From IMG/VR virus record IMGVR_UViG_3300044719_000253, positions 96,001-160,000 of that record: a DNA stretch of 64,000 nt, one strand, 5' to 3'. A program made the translations under genes and the position numbers. Positions 1,399 to 23,457 of the stretch are shown piece after piece. The notes beneath the pieces are model-generated. The model was not told where the DNA came from and searched no databases. It saw only the letters and a list, made by a program, of their open reading frames with translations. The number at the start of each line of letters is the position of its first letter. The stretch's first letter is position 1. The stretch comes from a virus (taxonomy: Duplodnaviria; Caudoviricetes).

Positions 1399-1830
1399 AT
1401 GTTCGGCGCCGAGTTCCTCGAAGAACCGACGCGGGTGGTCGAATTCTTTATCAGCACGCTCCAGCCGCTTTTGGCGCGTAAGGGTAAGATGACTGCAGTG
1501 GAAGCGTCGTTAATGTTACACCGTGCCTATTTGCTGCGTTACAACTTGGCCACTGGGGCTGAGTTAGATAACAACCCGGCGGCGTTGTTTAAGTTCCGGG
1601 AAGCGGAAGATCCGTATGTTGGTACTATGCTCGAAGACCATTTCGAACAGTTCCTGGATTTGGAAATCTTCCAGTACATGACGTGGGAGCAGTACATCAA
1701 CCTTCCACGGCATGAGTTGCAGATGGTGCGGCGCGTAGCAGAACGACGTCGGAAGCAAAAAAATAATGTTGACAGCAATTCTGTAAGAGATGCTGAAAAC
1801 ATGATGCGTAACATGGGCTTAGGGAGATAA
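1399..1830 (+). CDS. hypothetical protein (true start uncertain, may lie upstream)
   Basis: 143-aa ORF tightly packed between neighbours. There is no Shine-Dalgarno before ATG 1399, and the frame is open well upstream. Confidence 0.7.
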   Translation: MFGAEFLEEPTRVVEFFISTLQPLLARKGKMTAVEASLMLHRAYLLRYNLATGAELDNNPAALFKFREAEDPYVGTMLEDHFEQFLDLEIFQYMTWEQYINLPRHELQMVRRVAERRRKQKNNVDSNSVRDAENMMRNMGLGR

Positions 1831-19115: not shown

Positions 19116-19346
19116 TTACGCGGCATCGGGCAAGGCCATCATCCGTGCGTAGATCGCGGGGTCCACCGGCAGAGTAGGTGCTGCCTCGATGAAGTTGGCG
19201 GCCGTCGAGATCCACGGTTTGGTTTTGGCCAGATTGCCCGAGATTTCCCGCGGGCGAGCGGTCGACATCGCGCTGCGGTACGGCGCCATGGCTTCGAATC
19301 GTGCAGCCATGTAATCGTCCAGCAACAACGTCAAATTCATTTCGTC
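19116..19346 (-). CDS. nvRNAP beta-prime N-terminal subunit, exon 2 (phiKZ gp56.1-like)
   Basis: Begins GAC GAA ATG AAT (D-E-M-N), which completes NADYDG-DEMN after splicing. Confidence 0.9.
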   Translation of the reverse strand, partial: DEMNLTLLLDDYMAARFEAMAPYRSAMSTARPREISGNLAKTKPWISTAANFIEAAPTLPVDPAIYARMMALPDAA

Positions 19347-19677
19347 CATCCGACTCTCGCGAGTCTGTCCAGTTAGTTCGCGACACTAACCCGGTGCGAT
19401 TCCTAGCACCCGCTGTAGGCTTTCCCTACAGATCAGACCATATCTTCATCCTTTCGGATGCGTTCCATTTCGGGACTGCTAGTCCCTACGTGCGATGCAC
19501 TGGTCGTTGAACTTTCCTCTGTCCTAGAGGCTTAGCTGCGGATTACCCAATCTTTATCATTGTTACCATACCTGAATGATTAGTTCAGCCACACAAATAT
19601 TCCGACTTGTGTTTGGTAGATAAAGCTCTAAGGATGTTCCCGGCAATTAGAAAACGTTTAAAGACGGCAACGAGTTT
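19347..19677 (-). ncRNA. group I self-splicing intron, 331 nt, no homing endonuclease ORF
   Basis: 5' exon ends in U (GACGGU) and pairs with GCCGUC at 19663-19668 (P1 with a U-G splice-site pair). The intron ends in G. Elements: P AAUUGCCGGGAA, Q AAUCCGCAGC, R GUUCAACGACCA, S AAGAUAUGGUCU; P7 is GACCA/UGGUC. Confidence 0.93.
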
Positions 19678-20970
19678 ACCGTCGTAGTCAGCATTGAACC
19701 CCCTGACGGTCAAGTCCGACAACGAGATGGTTTGGTCAGCGGCATCCGGCTTGACCCGGGTGATGTAGAACAACTGCATCGACCCCAAGCCCAGCGAGGG
19801 ATTACGCTGGAAGATCGCCGGCAACCCACGCAGATTCGAGCCCGCAATCAGCTCGTGACGCGATTCACTGATCAATTCCTTGAACAGTTCATCCAAGAGC
19901 GGGTTGTACTCGGTGGCGTAGCGGTTGAGGAACCGCCAGATCTCGTTGGGCAACCACTGGCGGTCTTTCAGCTTGCGTGCCAAGTGCAACCGCAGCAAGC
20001 CCACACCGACGCCCCACGGGATGTGCAGTTCGCGATGGTAGTGTTGCACCGGCAGCTTGGTGATCACCGCCCGCGCCGACCAATCGCACCGGGTCGCAGC
20101 CAAGTGTTTGCGCGAGATGCCTTCCTTCGACGAGAACGACTTTTTGTTGAATTCTTCGTAATACGTCGCCATGTTGGCAATCGCCCGCACCACCCGGTTC
20201 TGCTTCACCGCATCGGTGTACCCGTTGAGCGGATCATCCAGGCCGATCAGGGACTCAATCGCATCGATCGCAATCGGCACGTTCGAATCCACATACACGG
20301 CCATGTCGGTGTCTTCCACCACCAGCAAGGTCTTGTTGGGCAATGCCATGTACTTCGAGAAGATCTTGCCGCGGTTCATTTGCAAGAACTTCAGGATGTG
20401 GTGCACTTCGTTCGGGTTGTCTTGCTTCTTCTTGCGGAAGTCGCTGATGGTGAGCAGCTTGGTGATGATTTCATCGAACTTGGCCACGAAGTTATTATAA
20501 CCGCGTTGCCGATCCAAGCCCAAGGCCAGCAGTTGCGCGTACACCTTCGGCGGTTTCTCCGGCACCGGGTACTTGGTGTCACACAACCACTGGATGATGT
20601 TGAATCGCCCTTTCTTGAAATGGTTGGAGAGAATGGTCCAGACGCGCGGATTGATGAGCAGAGCCACGCGGGCTGGTTGCCGCAGCCACACGATCGATTC
20701 CAGCTTTTGATCGCGCACGTTCACCACCGGTTTGTTGCAGTGTTCGCAAATTACGCCGAGGTATTTCTTGCCACGCGGTCCTTCCGAACAGTCACAGCGT
20801 GGGGTGTTGGTCAACACGTCATTCGGCTGATAACGTGTAAAGATCTTTTCTTTAAACGCTTTTAAGGCGTCGTGGGAACATTCCTGGAAATCGTTAATGA
20901 TGATCGGATCACGGTGTGAGCGTTGGGCCCACAAGTCGTCATGGCTGACGAGCCGCAAATAAGTGCCGAT
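19678..20970 (-). CDS. nvRNAP beta-prime N-terminal (catalytic) subunit, exon 1 (phiKZ gp55-like)
   Basis: Zn-binding PRCDC...CEHC, RCDWSARAVI, FQRNPSL and FNADYDG. Start is TTG 20958 or ATC 20970. Confidence 0.92.
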
Positions 20971-21092
20971 GATACACCTCTTTTAATCAAGAGAATAAAT
21001 AATGAGTGATACCCCAAGTTGCCTGCCTAAAGAAAAAAAAGTGAGACCCGCAAGGGCCTCACTTTCTTTCTTCAGCGAACTGCTAGTACCGA

Positions 21093-23099
21093 TTAGTACG
21101 TGCGCGTATGCGCCATGCCGCGGTAGCCGGCCGTGTTGCCCGTGTAGCTCGGCGCGCTGGTGAACATGGTGGTGTGGAAGTTCGACACCAGTGCACCGGC
21201 TTGGGCCAGGCCGTACGGCTGACGCACGGTCATGCGATCGTCCGAGTTCGGGATATCGATCTTCGGTTGGAAGTTCGATTGGGCGATCGATTGGTCCATG
21301 GCAGTCAGGAAGTCCGGATGGAACGTCTTGTGGATCGAGATGCCGGTCACCGTCGGGTGCACGACTTGCTCGATCAGTTTCAGACGCTCAGCCAGCTGGT
21401 AGTCGTTGCTACCGCCCCAGGTGGCGGCCCAGCGCTTGCCGATGTCCGGCTGCTCGTGGCCTTTGGCGTTGAGCAGGTACAGCAGGTCGATGTTGCGCAG
21501 ATCGTTGATGCGGCCCTGGTCGTCGGTGTAGAAACCGTTCAGCACGCGCTCGGTACGCGGCAGGACGATTTGACGGCTTTGGGTTTGGTTGAAGATCTGG
21601 CTAAAACGGCCATCGGTCATGGCGTCCATCGCGTTGATGATCGCTTGACGCGCACCTTCGACTTCGCTGGCTTCGGCGAACACGCGCAGGAACCAGGTAT
21701 CGGCGCCGGCCACCGGCACGTCGATCGAGAAGGCCGGATACGGCTGCATGATGAAGTTCACCAGACGGTAGAACTCGTCATTGCCGAAGCTGGCTTCGTG
21801 GGTCGGGAACGGGCTGACGGTGTCGCCGATCTTGAGGCCATAGTCGTAGTTCGTGGCGCCCAGATCACGCGGACGGAAGTTGCTGCGACCGCCACCGCCG
21901 TGCAGTTGCAGATGCGCCGGCAGGAAGTTGCGCAGCCACTGCGGACCGTACTTGGTCTGGTCGAACAGCGGCAGCATCGTCGAGATCAGCAGCAGCACGT
22001 TGCCCAGGTCCGGCAGCACGCCCATGTCGAAGCCCGAGATGGTGATTTCACCCGAGTATTCCTGGGTGTCATTGCCGCTCGGCTGCGCGCCGCCGACCAT
22101 GTAGCGGTTGCGGCGACCTTGGACCGGATCGATGTTGAGCGTGGTGTACGCCAGCACGCGACCGATTTCCATCACGCCCGCGGTGTTTTCGGTCTTGTCC
22201 TGCTGCGCCACGCCGGACTGGCGTTGCTGTTCCGAACGGAAGTCGGTGACGATTTCGCAGCGGATCGGCAGACCAGAAGCGTCGAACGCTTCGACCGGCG
22301 GATTGGCTTGGTCCTGGTTCATGTGGATCGAGTCGATCAGCAGCGACGAGCTGTCGGCAGCGACGTCGGCCAGGCGGTTGTACTTGAAGCCCGGCGTTTT
22401 GGTTTCCAGTTCAGCCGCGCAAGCGCGCATCGCGTTCATGAACAGACCAGCGACCTTGTACGGATCGTCGATCTTGAAGTTGACCGGCACCGGGCTCCAG
22501 TCGGCCGAATAGATCTCGGCTTGCTGCACGACCGCTCCGACGCGTTGACGGATGATCGTGGCCAGCGCGTCGTCGGCCAGCGTGGCCGGGGTACGCGGCG
22601 CGGTGACACGTTCTTGGCCATAACCGCCGTACAGTTCATTGCCACGGGTGGCCGGGGGCGGCGCCATGTCGGAAGCCAGCAGCAGGGTGTGGTAAGCCAC
22701 GCGGTTGTCGCCGCGGTCGGCGATCAGCAGGATCATGGCGATCTTATTGCTCAGGCCCGTTTGGGCGCTGCTGATGGCGTCACGGGCCACCGGCACGACG
22801 CGCACGTTCCAGCCGCTCAGTTCGTTGTCCTTCTCCTTTTCGTAGAAGTCTTGCAGCTTCTTCGTGAGTTCGCCCAGATCGCGACCGTTGTTGTCACGAC
22901 CTTGGTTGAGGGCGCCGCCGCGGAACAGCAGGCCGGCACCGGCTTGACGCGGGGCGCCACCCACGGGGGCACCTTGCGGCGTTTGGTAGTTCGGCTGCGC
23001 TTGACCCTGGGCCGCTTGCGCTGCGCCGCCGTACATGTCGTTCGGCTGCTGCTGCGTGGCGTTCGGGTTGGCGTTGCCTTGGGCGATTTGACCTTTCAT
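21093..23099 (-). CDS. chmA: chimallin (phage nuclear shell protein, phiKZ gp54-like)
   Basis: 668 aa from ATG 23099 (AAAGGA RBS). Segments DASGLPIRCEIV, RDLGA...QPYPAFSIDV and GFYTDDQGRINDLRNIDLLYLLNAKG parallel 201phi2-1 chimallin as recalled. Q/G/A-rich N-terminus. Directly upstream of the gp55-like gene with strongly biased codons. Confidence 0.9.
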   Translation of the reverse strand: MKGQIAQGNANPNATQQQPNDMYGGAAQAAQGQAQPNYQTPQGAPVGGAPRQAGAGLLFRGGALNQGRDNNGRDLGELTKKLQDFYEKEKDNELSGWNVRVVPVARDAISSAQTGLSNKIAMILLIADRGDNRVAYHTLLLASDMAPPPATRGNELYGGYGQERVTAPRTPATLADDALATIIRQRVGAVVQQAEIYSADWSPVPVNFKIDDPYKVAGLFMNAMRACAAELETKTPGFKYNRLADVAADSSSLLIDSIHMNQDQANPPVEAFDASGLPIRCEIVTDFRSEQQRQSGVAQQDKTENTAGVMEIGRVLAYTTLNIDPVQGRRNRYMVGGAQPSGNDTQEYSGEITISGFDMGVLPDLGNVLLLISTMLPLFDQTKYGPQWLRNFLPAHLQLHGGGGRSNFRPRDLGATNYDYGLKIGDTVSPFPTHEASFGNDEFYRLVNFIMQPYPAFSIDVPVAGADTWFLRVFAEASEVEGARQAIINAMDAMTDGRFSQIFNQTQSRQIVLPRTERVLNGFYTDDQGRINDLRNIDLLYLLNAKGHEQPDIGKRWAATWGGSNDYQLAERLKLIEQVVHPTVTGISIHKTFHPDFLTAMDQSIAQSNFQPKIDIPNSDDRMTVRQPYGLAQAGALVSNFHTTMFTSAPSYTGNTAGYRGMAHTRTY

Positions 23100-23182
23100 G
23101 CTATTTCCTTTTTTGTACAAGTTGTTGTGTAATTTGTTTGCGCAAACAAACTGTTTATTGAACACTTTCCTGGGTGTTCCTA

Positions 23183-23205
23183 TTAGTGATATAGGCGTAT
23201 TTTTG
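23183..23205 (-). promoter_or_regulatory. early-type promoter, TATATCAC variant
   Basis: Minus strand reads AAAAATACGCCTATATCACTAA, about 85 nt upstream of chimallin. Confidence 0.72.
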
Positions 23206-23457
23206 TTTAGCGCCAGATTTCGAGAGCATACCGCAATAGGAACCATGGGACGCCGATTGCGTCTTCCACTATACAATGGGGTAGGTGATGTATTTTTTTA
23301 CTTGAACATGGCTTTCCCTTTCGTACCAATCCCCGAGTTCTGAACCACTCGCTCAAGCGATACACAGATGGAGTATTTTTCTAACACTATTCCACCCTGT
23401 CCGTGGTGCAATCGTATGTCCCTGCCCCCATTCCTTTTTCCATGATGAGTCCCGTTT

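What the first reader, a model, noticed from the sequence alone, without database searches (positions are those of the whole stretch)
19116..20970. Endonuclease-free group I intron inserted inside the RNAP catalytic motif (NADYDG|DEMN)
Seen: exon 1 ends ...AAT GCT GAC TAC GAC GGT and exon 2 starts GAC GAA ATG AAT. The 331-nt insert has a P1 helix with a U-G pair, a terminal G, recognisable P/Q/R/S elements, and a P7 variant GACCA/UGGUC where both strands are changed relative to the usual GACUA/UAGUC. Without splicing the third catalytic Asp is missing and exon 1 stops 30 codons into the intron. So all nvRNAP-dependent transcription should depend on RNA self-splicing. Established: phiKZ gp55/gp56.1 is intron-split, and intron endonucleases mediate competition between co-infecting jumbo phages. 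Notable here: no homing endonuclease is retained, and the motif has Tyr (NADYDGD) in place of the usual Phe. Inference: the minimal intron persists as a shield against rival homing endonucleases or as a splicing checkpoint. The intron's last three bases are ATG in frame with exon 2, so unspliced RNA could also yield a free exon-2 peptide.
Basis: partly seen in the sequence, partly recalled or inferred. Interest (0 to 1): 0.7.

Follow-up and report, generated by a model that had tools for sequence, protein, structure and literature searches.

The report
Endonuclease-free intron in phage RNA polymerase
A giant nucleus-forming phage carries a genuine 331-base self-splicing group I intron, with no endonuclease gene, inside the catalytic motif of its own RNA polymerase; related phages show this is a common state, because that motif is a crowded landing site for such introns.

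Summary
On the minus strand, a 331-nt group I intron (19677..19347) splits the catalytic motif NADYDG|D. The host gene is the orthologue of the phiKZ gp55 non-virion RNA polymerase subunit. Rfam scores the intron 65.2 bits against a cut-off of 50. P1 with U.G, P10, the terminal G and the compensated P7 (GACCA/UGGUC) are all present. The genome record has one copy of the gene, and unspliced RNA stops 30 codons into the intron. So the enzyme should depend on splicing, but no RNA data could be obtained.

Lacking an endonuclease is not unusual. Of 80 related metagenomic loci, 18 are interrupted in or just before this motif, at five positions within 21 nt. At least 11 of those have only ORF-less introns, and nine other loci share this exact DG|D site. 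The Tyr also occurs in intron-less relatives. The closest relative (93%) has an HNH intron 9 nt upstream; the next (91%) has none. The "shield" idea is possible but untested, and I-HmuI-type enzymes can cut intron-bearing alleles. Nothing supports the "checkpoint" or free exon-2 peptide ideas.

Verdict: a new member of a known kind.

The parts
19678..20970 (-). Exon 1 of the non-virion RNAP beta'-N gene (phiKZ gp55 orthologue). It ends ...NADYDG. The probable start is the ATC at 20970..20968; the conservative ORF starts at the TTG at 20958.
   Evidence: phrog_2987 E = 3e-120. PDB 7OGP_A E = 2.7e-69. Start-codon comparison.
19347..19677 (-). 331-nt ORF-less group I intron with IA-type architecture (P7.1/P7.2 present, no P2).
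   Evidence: Rfam RF00028 65.2 bits, cut-off 50. Junctions. Comparative fold with 38 of 59 pairs kept through changes on both sides.
19116..19346 (-). Exon 2: D-EMNLTLLLDD... for 76 residues, plus the stop codon. It supplies the third catalytic Asp.
   Evidence: phrog_2987 profile positions 422-475. 92% identical to exon 2 of L008.
19678..19683 (-). 5' strand of P1 (exon bases GACGGU). U at 19678 forms the splice-site U.G pair.
   Evidence: 6/6 pairs. Covaries in L014 and L031: GAUGGU with GCCAUC.
19663..19673 (-). Internal guide sequence UCGUU-GCCGUC. The first five bases pair with exon 2 (P10) and the last six with exon 1 (P1).
19501..19505 (-). P7 5' strand, GACCA (inside the R element GUUCAACGACCA).
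19436..19440 (-). P7 3' strand, UGGUC (inside the S element AAGAUAUGGUC). Together with 19501-19505 this is a U-A to C-G compensatory change.
   Evidence: Alignment columns 334/438 read UA in 4 sequences and CG in 2.
19472..19500 (-). P7.1 (GUGC/GCAC) and P7.2 (GGGACU/AGUCCC) hairpins between P7 and P3', typical of subgroup IA.
19352..19431 (-). P9 and three small 3' hairpins (P9.1-P9.3). In relatives the HNH gene sits in this 3' region.
   Evidence: The ORF in L019 starts at intron position 329, after the core.
19347..19347 (-). Terminal G (omega G) of the intron.
21093..23276 (-). Context: the nuclear shell protein (chimallin) gene lies directly upstream, the same gene order as phiKZ gp54-gp55.
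   Evidence: phrog_4795 E = 6e-54. phiKZ, PhiPA3 and HPP-Temi annotation.

Best explanation

How it should work (inferred from the standard group I pathway):
- The transcript folds into the group I core.
- The guide sequence UCGUU-GCCGUC holds exon 1 (GACGGU, with U.G at 19678) in P1 and exon 2 (GACGA) in P10.
- A free guanosine attacks after U19678.
- The freed exon-1 end attacks after the terminal G at 19347.
- GGU is joined to GAC, restoring NADYDGD.
- Without splicing, translation stops 30 codons into the intron and the protein lacks the third metal-binding Asp.

Evolutionary reading: it belongs to a population of mobile introns that repeatedly invade the DNA encoding this motif in nucleus-forming jumbo phages, normally carried by I-HmuI-type HNH endonucleases. 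This copy has lost its endonuclease gene or never had one. It most likely persists because only an exact deletion would leave the essential gene intact. Immunity to endonucleases that need an unbroken DG|D site would be a by-product, not a demonstrated function.

Shown here: the sequence anatomy, the family match, the covariation, the distribution in relatives, and the single-copy status. Inferred: the splicing itself and the reason for persistence.
For: - Rfam full-length match above the curated cut-off.
- Exact, in-frame U...G junctions that restore the motif and a 503-aa product collinear with the uninterrupted orthologues FLC9, PhiPA3, L009, L010 and L011.
- P1 and P10 pair perfectly and covary with the exon across the other DG|D introns.
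- The comparative fold recovers P4-P9.1, with 38 of 59 pairs kept through changes on both sides. P7 carries a compensated C-G pair.
- Exon 2 is as conserved as exon 1 against the nearest relative (92% vs 93%), so it is still under selection as part of the protein.
- There is only one copy of the gene in the 226 kb record.
- The phiKZ orthologue is known to be spliced, and the solved enzyme contains the joined gp55/gp56.1 chain.
- Relatives carry HNH_3/NUMOD1 endonuclease genes in introns at the same site (L019, L031, L082) and at neighbouring sites (phiKZ, L008, PA7).
- No HNH_3, HNH or GIY-YIG match anywhere in this genome record.
- Intron content differs among close relatives: G001 has one HNH intron and G003 has none.
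Against:
- The genome record is estimated 83% complete, so a free-standing endonuclease could lie in the missing part.
- The single-sequence fold is only modestly better than shuffles (z = -2.2).
- No remnant of an endonuclease gene and no co-conversion tract was detected, so loss versus never-had cannot be decided.
- The P7 variant lies in the guanosine-binding helix, and its effect on activity is unknown.
Confidence: 0.85

Rival explanations
1. Adaptive shield. The ORF-less intron is kept by selection because it breaks up the target sequence of homing endonucleases carried by co-infecting relatives, so the polymerase gene cannot be nicked.
For: - HNH introns occupy the same DG|D site in L019, L031 and L082, and a site 9 nt upstream in the 93%-identical relative L008.
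- The same genome has a second ORF-less intron in the virion RNAP beta gene, at or within one codon of the site of the PhiPA3 gp210 intron. That endonuclease is shown to harm intron-less phiKZ (PMC11620839).
- Some HNH enzymes cannot cut intron-plus DNA, for example I-PfoP3I (PMC3428280).
- ORF-less introns that protect a site targeted by a free-standing endonuclease are described under 'collaborative homing' (PMC3984707).
Against: - I-HmuI and I-HmuII, the same enzyme family as the ORFs found here, cut both intron-plus and intronless alleles (PMC3428280).
- L043 and L061 carry two introns 12 nt apart, so one resident intron does not keep the neighbouring site closed.
- ORF-less introns are expected anyway from the ordinary cycle of invasion, endonuclease decay and slow loss (PMC3984707).
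- No experiment or population data are available here.
Confidence: 0.25
2. The intron is mobilised in trans. A free-standing or intron-borne endonuclease encoded elsewhere (in the missing 17% of the genome or in a co-infecting phage) cuts intron-less DG|D alleles, and this ORF-less intron spreads by repair (collaborative or trans homing).
For: - The record is 83% complete.
- Trans homing of ORF-less or defunct introns is documented: T4 mobE with I-TevIII (PMC2790892) and collaborative homing.
- DG|D is the most frequently occupied site, and most of its occupants are ORF-less.
Against: - No HNH_3, HNH or GIY-YIG domain in the 226 kb available.
- No co-conversion tract around the junction.
Confidence: 0.15
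3. Regulatory 'splicing checkpoint'. Splicing efficiency is used to time or gate production of the non-virion polymerase.
For: Only the logic that the enzyme depends on splicing. Group I introns can be domesticated as sensors, for example the c-di-GMP-dependent intron (PMC3984707).
Against: - Close relatives do without any intron here (L009, L010, L011) or have one at another position (L008).
- No extra sensor domain is present; all helices are accounted for by the standard core.
Confidence: 0.05
4. Unspliced RNA yields a separate exon-2 peptide from the in-frame ATG formed by the last three intron bases.
For: ATG at 19349..19347 is in frame, giving a 77-aa ORF.
Against: - The last triplet varies among DG|D introns (TTG, ACG, TCG, ATG); only the final G is constant.
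- The ATG directly follows the P9.3 hairpin and has no convincing Shine-Dalgarno sequence.
- A lone 76-residue tail has no known role.
Confidence: 0.03
5. The intron is decayed and no longer splices, so the gene is a pseudogene or the contig is an assembly artefact.
For: The rare P7 variant. No experimental data.
Against: - The P7 change is compensated on both strands.
- All conserved core elements match the consensus.
- Both exons are intact, and exon 2 is 92% identical to the relative's.
- The gene is single-copy, and its phiKZ counterpart is a subunit of the solved non-virion polymerase.
Confidence: 0.04

Closest known systems
phiKZ gp55 / gp56 / gp56.1 group I intron
   Same: Same gene (non-virion RNAP beta'-N), same catalytic motif, same gene neighbourhood after the shell protein gene, and the same phage-type group I core. 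Rfam scores the phiKZ core 75.6 bits.
   Different: The phiKZ intron is inserted 15 nt upstream (N|ADFDGD rather than NADYDG|D). It is 1372 nt long and encodes the HNH_3/NUMOD1/NUMOD4 endonuclease gp56. The intron here is 331 nt and has no ORF.
PhiPA3 gp210 intron in the virion RNAP beta gene (Birkholz et al. 2024, PMC11620839)
   Same: A group I intron in an active-site region of a chimallivirus RNAP gene. The intron core shows DNA similarity (68% over 192 nt). This genome also has an ORF-less relative of that very intron, outside the window.
   Different: It is in a different gene and enzyme. The PhiPA3 intron carries the endonuclease that does the competitive damage; the intron studied here has none.
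ORF-less phage group I introns served by outside endonucleases: the cyanophage S-PM2 psbA intron with F-CphI, and the T4 nrdB intron with mobE (PMC3984707, PMC6083498, PMC2790892)
   Same: A minimal self-splicing intron, with no working endonuclease of its own, in a conserved site of an essential or important gene.
   Different: In those cases a free-standing endonuclease lies next to the gene. No endonuclease domain was found anywhere in this 226 kb record.
[quoted passage not shown]
   Same: The closest DNA matches of the intron's 5' half are introns of SPO1-like Bacillus phages (up to 81% over 127 nt). The endonucleases in the relatives' introns are of the I-HmuI type (HNH_3 + NUMOD1, I-HmuI_NUMOD-like).
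   Different: Different host gene and phage family, and those introns carry their endonuclease.

Membership tests
Group I catalytic intron (Rfam RF00028) | Covariance-model score above the curated gathering score, over the full model | tested here: met
   65.2 bits against 50, model positions 1-253, E = 2.9e-14.
Group I catalytic intron (Rfam RF00028) | P1 helix between the exon-1 end and the internal guide, with U.G at the 5' splice site | tested here: met
   GACGGU/GCCGUC, 6/6 pairs. It covaries with the exon in L014 and L031.
Group I catalytic intron (Rfam RF00028) | Terminal G, and P10 pairing with exon 2 | tested here: met
   G at 19347. UCGUU/GACGA, 5/5 pairs. P10 also pairs in L014 and L082.
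Group I catalytic intron (Rfam RF00028) | Conserved core helices P3-P9 supported by covariation | tested here: met
   RNAalifold on six ORF-less introns gives 59 pairs, 38 of them kept through changes on both sides, covering P4, P5, P6, P7, P7.1/7.2, P8, P9 and P9.1. P3 was checked by eye: CGUU/AACG.
Group I catalytic intron (Rfam RF00028) | GTP-dependent self-splicing, and the spliced junction present in RNA | not testable with these tools
Subgroup IA (phage type, IA2-like) | Extra P7.1/P7.2 hairpins between P7 and P3' | tested here: inconclusive
   Two hairpins are present at intron positions 178-206. The nearest DNA matches are SPO1-like phage introns. No formal subgroup classifier was run, and P2 is absent.
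Mobile (homing) group I intron | An intron-encoded homing endonuclease ORF | tested here: not met
   No ORF beyond the 30-codon read-through. No HNH_3, HNH or GIY-YIG match in the genome record.
Chimallivirus non-virion RNAP beta'-N subunit (phiKZ gp55 family) | Sequence homology to the solved phiKZ subunit, and the metal-binding motif | tested here: met
   PDB 7OGP_A E = 2.7e-69. phrog_2987 E = 3e-120. NADYDGD is restored after splicing.
Chimallivirus non-virion RNAP beta'-N subunit (phiKZ gp55 family) | Conserved position directly downstream of the nuclear shell (chimallin) gene | tested here: met
   phrog_4795 hit at 21093..23276 (-). Same gene order in phiKZ, PhiPA3 and HPP-Temi.

The most novel reading that the evidence does not exclude
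The 21 nt that encode NADFDGD in the chimallivirus non-virion polymerase gene may be the arena of an intron arms race. Five insertion positions are used, and up to three introns are stacked in and just before the motif. Micro-exons are exactly 12 nt, just enough for one intron's P10 and the next intron's P1. ORF-less introns such as this one would then act as site-blockers. They would deny a target to rival HNH endonucleases, or make the allele incompatible with a neighbouring intron. For example, the DG|D intron here and the NAD|Y intron of the 93% relative, 9 nt apart, were never seen together. The phage nucleus separates transcription from translation, which could be what lets these phages tolerate so many introns in one essential message.
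Probability: 0.3. Interest if true: 0.65.

Novelty: new member of a known kind. Interest (0 to 1): 0.4.

Why it matters
On its own this is one more group I intron in a jumbo-phage polymerase gene, a kind known since phiKZ.

Its value is as an entry point to a pattern that I could not find described in the searchable literature:
- The catalytic-motif DNA of this one gene is invaded at five positions within 21 nt.
- Most resident introns have no endonuclease.
- Close relatives differ in which site, if any, is occupied.

The 2024 ΦPA3 work showed that an intron endonuclease can decide the outcome of mixed infections. Against that background, natural sets of occupied, differently occupied and empty alleles (this phage, L008, L009) would allow a direct test. 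The question is whether a bare intron protects a gene, or is only a leftover.

It also matters for annotation. Gene callers split or truncate this essential gene, as in the Aeromonas phage PS1 record.

Tried and rejected
- **Exact-word search** for a distinctive 28-mer of the intron in IMG/VR: no other copy.
- **Co-conversion tract:** sliding-window identity of the spliced gene against L008, L009 and L010 shows nothing unusual at the junction. Whether the intron arrived by homing is left open.
- **'GGT marks intron alleles':** rejected. 20 of 53 intron-less alleles also use GGT.
- **'Tyr is linked to the intron':** rejected. Intron-less L009 and L010 have it too.
- **Tree of 26 intron cores:** poorly resolved. 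Only local same-site pairs are supported, and DG|D needs 5 changes against 7.0 expected by shuffling (33 of 500 shuffles as low). It was not used to infer origins.
- **L014 and L033** are interrupted at DG|D but gave no Rfam hit at the gathering score. They are counted as interrupted, not as confirmed introns.
- **L036** has two Rfam-confirmed introns, but its first junction has no canonical U...G solution. Left unresolved.
- **L076** has two introns whose exact sites I did not resolve.
- **The second intron of this genome:** its 5' junction is ambiguous between ...DRD| (best P1/P10) and ...DRDD| (keeps both conserved Asp).
- **PMC421625** (SPO1/SP82 homing) is not held. The point was taken from PMC3428280 instead.
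- **My first helper-script P3 assignment** was wrong and was corrected.
Full report
**1. What is there**

The feature lies on the minus strand.
- An ORF running down from about 20970 ends its homology at ...AAT GCT GAC TAC GAC GGT (last base 19678).
- A further 231 bases starting GAC GAA ATG AAT (19346..19116) continue the same protein after a 331-nt gap (19677..19347).
- Joining the two gives a 503-residue product (from the TTG at 20958) with an intact NADYDGD.
- Read without splicing, the frame runs 30 codons into the insert and stops.
- Rfam finds one family in the whole 64 kb window: Intron_gpI at 19687..19413 (-), full model, 65.2 bits against a gathering score of 50, E = 2.9e-14.

**2. 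Anatomy of the intron**

- The six last exon bases GACGGU pair 6/6 with GCCGUC at intron positions 10-15. The U at 19678 sits in a U.G pair.
- The five bases just before that guide (UCGUU) pair 5/5 with the first bases of exon 2 (GACGA). This gives a contiguous P10-P1 guide.
- The last intron base is G.
- The conserved P, Q, R and S stretches align with the Rfam consensus.
- I could place P3, P4, P5 with a three-way extension, P6, P7, P7.1, P7.2, P8, P9 and three small 3' hairpins.
- P7 reads GACCA/UGGUC. Nearly all of the roughly 25 related introns I collected read GACUA/UAGUC, so both strands have changed and the pair is kept.
- An RNAalifold run on six ORF-less introns from this gene family recovers the standard helices. 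It predicts 59 pairs, 38 of them kept through changes on both sides. In P7 the C-G form is shared with L083.
- Alone, the sequence folds only modestly better than shuffles (z = -2.2). The comparative evidence is the stronger argument.
- Across the other introns at the same site, the guide sequence follows the exon. Where the exon reads GAT GGT (L014, L031), the guide reads GCCATC instead of GCCGTC.

**3. The host gene**

- Exon 1 matches phrog_2987 at E = 3e-120, and exon 2 matches the last 54 positions of the same profile.
- The best solved structure is 7OGP chain A, deposited as 'PHIKZ055 ... PHIKZ056.1'. This is the spliced beta'-N-like subunit of the phiKZ non-virion RNA polymerase (E = 2.7e-69).
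- The gene directly upstream is the nuclear shell protein gene, as in phiKZ, PhiPA3 and HPP-Temi.
- The window is part of a 226 kb IMG/VR virus record estimated 83% complete.
- That record has no second copy of the gene. The non-virion polymerase of this phage should therefore depend on removal of the intron. This is inference; I could obtain no RNA data.

**4. Comparison with what is known**

- The phiKZ intron sits at N|ADFDGD, 15 nt upstream of the position here. It is 1372 nt long and carries an HNH_3/NUMOD1 endonuclease.
- The ΦPA3 work shows that an intron HNH endonuclease in a different polymerase gene damages intron-less phiKZ and gives a 3.7-fold advantage (PMC11620839).

**5. How unusual is an endonuclease-free intron here?**

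I pulled 80 related loci from IMG/VR and mapped both exons in each.
- Eighteen loci are interrupted in or just before the motif. One more contig ends exactly at NADFDG.
- Rfam confirms group I introns at gathering score in 16 of the 17 interrupted loci scanned. L014 and L033 gave no hit at the gathering score. L077, a near-copy of L050, was not scanned.
- Five positions are used within 21 nt:

| Site | Loci |
|---|---|
| N\|A | phiKZ |
| NA\|D | L043, L061 |
| NAD\|F/Y | L008, L047, L063, L081, L083, probably L036, and the cultured Aeromonas phage PS1 |
| DG\|D | this phage, L014, L019, L031, L033, L043, L050/L077, L061, L082 |
| GD\|x | phage PA7 (= L044), L084, probably L036 |

- L043 and L061 each carry introns at both NA|D and DG|D, separated by a 12-nt micro-exon encoding DFDG. 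The flanks are the canonical U and G and the P1 pairings are good.
- L043, L076 and L082 have a further intron about 45 codons upstream.
- Only L008, L019, L031, L044 and L082, and probably L043, contain an HNH gene. At least 11 interrupted loci have only short ORF-less introns of roughly 200-430 nt.
- So the endonuclease-free state and the DG|D site are both common in this family. I found no paper describing this hotspot.

**6. The nearest relatives**

- L008 (93% protein identity, complete 272 kb genome) has a 1211-nt HNH intron at NAD|Y, 9 nt upstream of the site used here. It has no other group I intron.
- L009 (91%) has an uninterrupted gene.
- L010 (74%) has an uninterrupted gene, and its complete genome has no group I intron at all.
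- All of these except L011 share the Tyr in NADYDGD, so the Tyr is a lineage trait unconnected to the intron.
- Nucleotide identity around the junction is no different from the rest of the gene, so there is no visible co-conversion tract.
- The intron's 5' half resembles other DG|D introns (L033 74%, L019 67%). Over its whole length it is nearest to the NAD|F intron of L083 (66%).
- A tree of the cores is too weakly supported to say more.

**7. The same genome has a second ORF-less intron**

- It lies about 2 kb outside the window, with a weaker Rfam hit of 43 bits. It splits the large beta-like subunit gene that corresponds to ΦPA3 gp211/gp209.
- It sits at, or within one codon of, the 'after two Asp' site of the ΦPA3 gp210 intron, and its 3' end is visibly similar to the ΦPA3 intron's. 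It is about 366 nt with no ORF.
- No HNH_3, HNH or GIY-YIG domain is found anywhere in the record.

**8. Mechanism and rivals**

The best-supported reading is an ordinary self-splicing group I intron that has lost, or never had, its endonuclease. It would be retained because only an exact deletion leaves the essential gene intact.

- Endonuclease-bearing introns for the same site and the neighbouring site circulate in relatives.
- At least some HNH enzymes cannot cut occupied sites (I-PfoP3I).

Two observations argue against a strong version:
- I-HmuI and I-HmuII, the family these ORFs belong to, cut intron-plus as well as intronless alleles (PMC3428280).
- Double occupancy 12 nt apart shows that one intron does not close the neighbourhood.

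A regulatory checkpoint has no support, since close relatives lack the intron. The in-frame ATG at the intron end is not conserved among DG|D introns and lacks a ribosome-binding site.

**9. Verdict**

This is a new member of a known kind. The wider pattern it exposes, an intron hotspot with micro-exons in the polymerase active-site motif, is the part worth following up.

Noticed in passing
window 20958-20990 (minus strand): Probable non-AUG start of the polymerase gene. The TTG chosen by the ORF listing (20958) is CTG, CTA or CTT in relatives (ATG in L012, which could start there). The conserved N-terminus I-G-T-Y lines up with M-G-L-Y of phiKZ and PhiPA3. The codon before GGY ACT is ATC here (20970..20968) and in L008, L009, L010 and L012, and ATA in L011. 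It lies 4-7 nt after a strong Shine-Dalgarno, with no ATG, GTG or TTG available. This looks like a conserved AUC/AUA initiation codon.
   Followed up: partly
outside the window: L002 about 1448-1813 (minus) = G000:C1 about 162099-162464: A second ORF-less group I intron in the same genome (Rfam 43 bits, below cut-off; about 366 nt). It splits the virion RNAP beta-like gene (the PhiPA3 gp211/gp209 orthologue) at or within one codon of the site of the PhiPA3 gp210 endonuclease intron, and its 3' end is similar. The 5' junction is ambiguous between DRD| and DRDD|.
   Followed up: partly
L043:5566-5922, L061:5215-5470, L036:5344-5836: Tandem group I introns separated by 12-nt micro-exons inside the catalytic motif (DFDG in L043 and L061; FDGD in L036, where the first junction is non-canonical and unresolved). 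L043 has three introns within about 1.1 kb. Twelve nt equals one P10 plus one P1 footprint.
   Followed up: partly
L008:5273-6483 (IMG/VR contig, 93% protein identity to this gene): The closest relative carries a 1211-nt intron with an HNH_3/NUMOD1 endonuclease at NAD|YDGD, 9 nt upstream of the site used here. The next relative (L009) has an empty site. This is a natural trio of alleles for testing intron immunity.
   Followed up: yes
L094 (Aeromonas phage PS1, MN032614.2 46797-50012): The PS1 gp55-family gene is annotated as separate hypothetical proteins. Exon 1 ends ...EFNAD| and is followed by a group I core and a 'putative HNH endonuclease'. It is therefore an unannotated split gene in a cultured phage. 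I did not locate exon 2.
   Followed up: partly
L044 = Pseudomonas phage PA7 (IMG/VR 2974664464), L044:5249-6772: PA7 has a 1524-nt intron with an HNH_3/NUMOD1/I-HmuI-like endonuclease inserted after NADFDGD|Q. This is a fifth position in the same motif, again in a cultured phage.
   Followed up: yes
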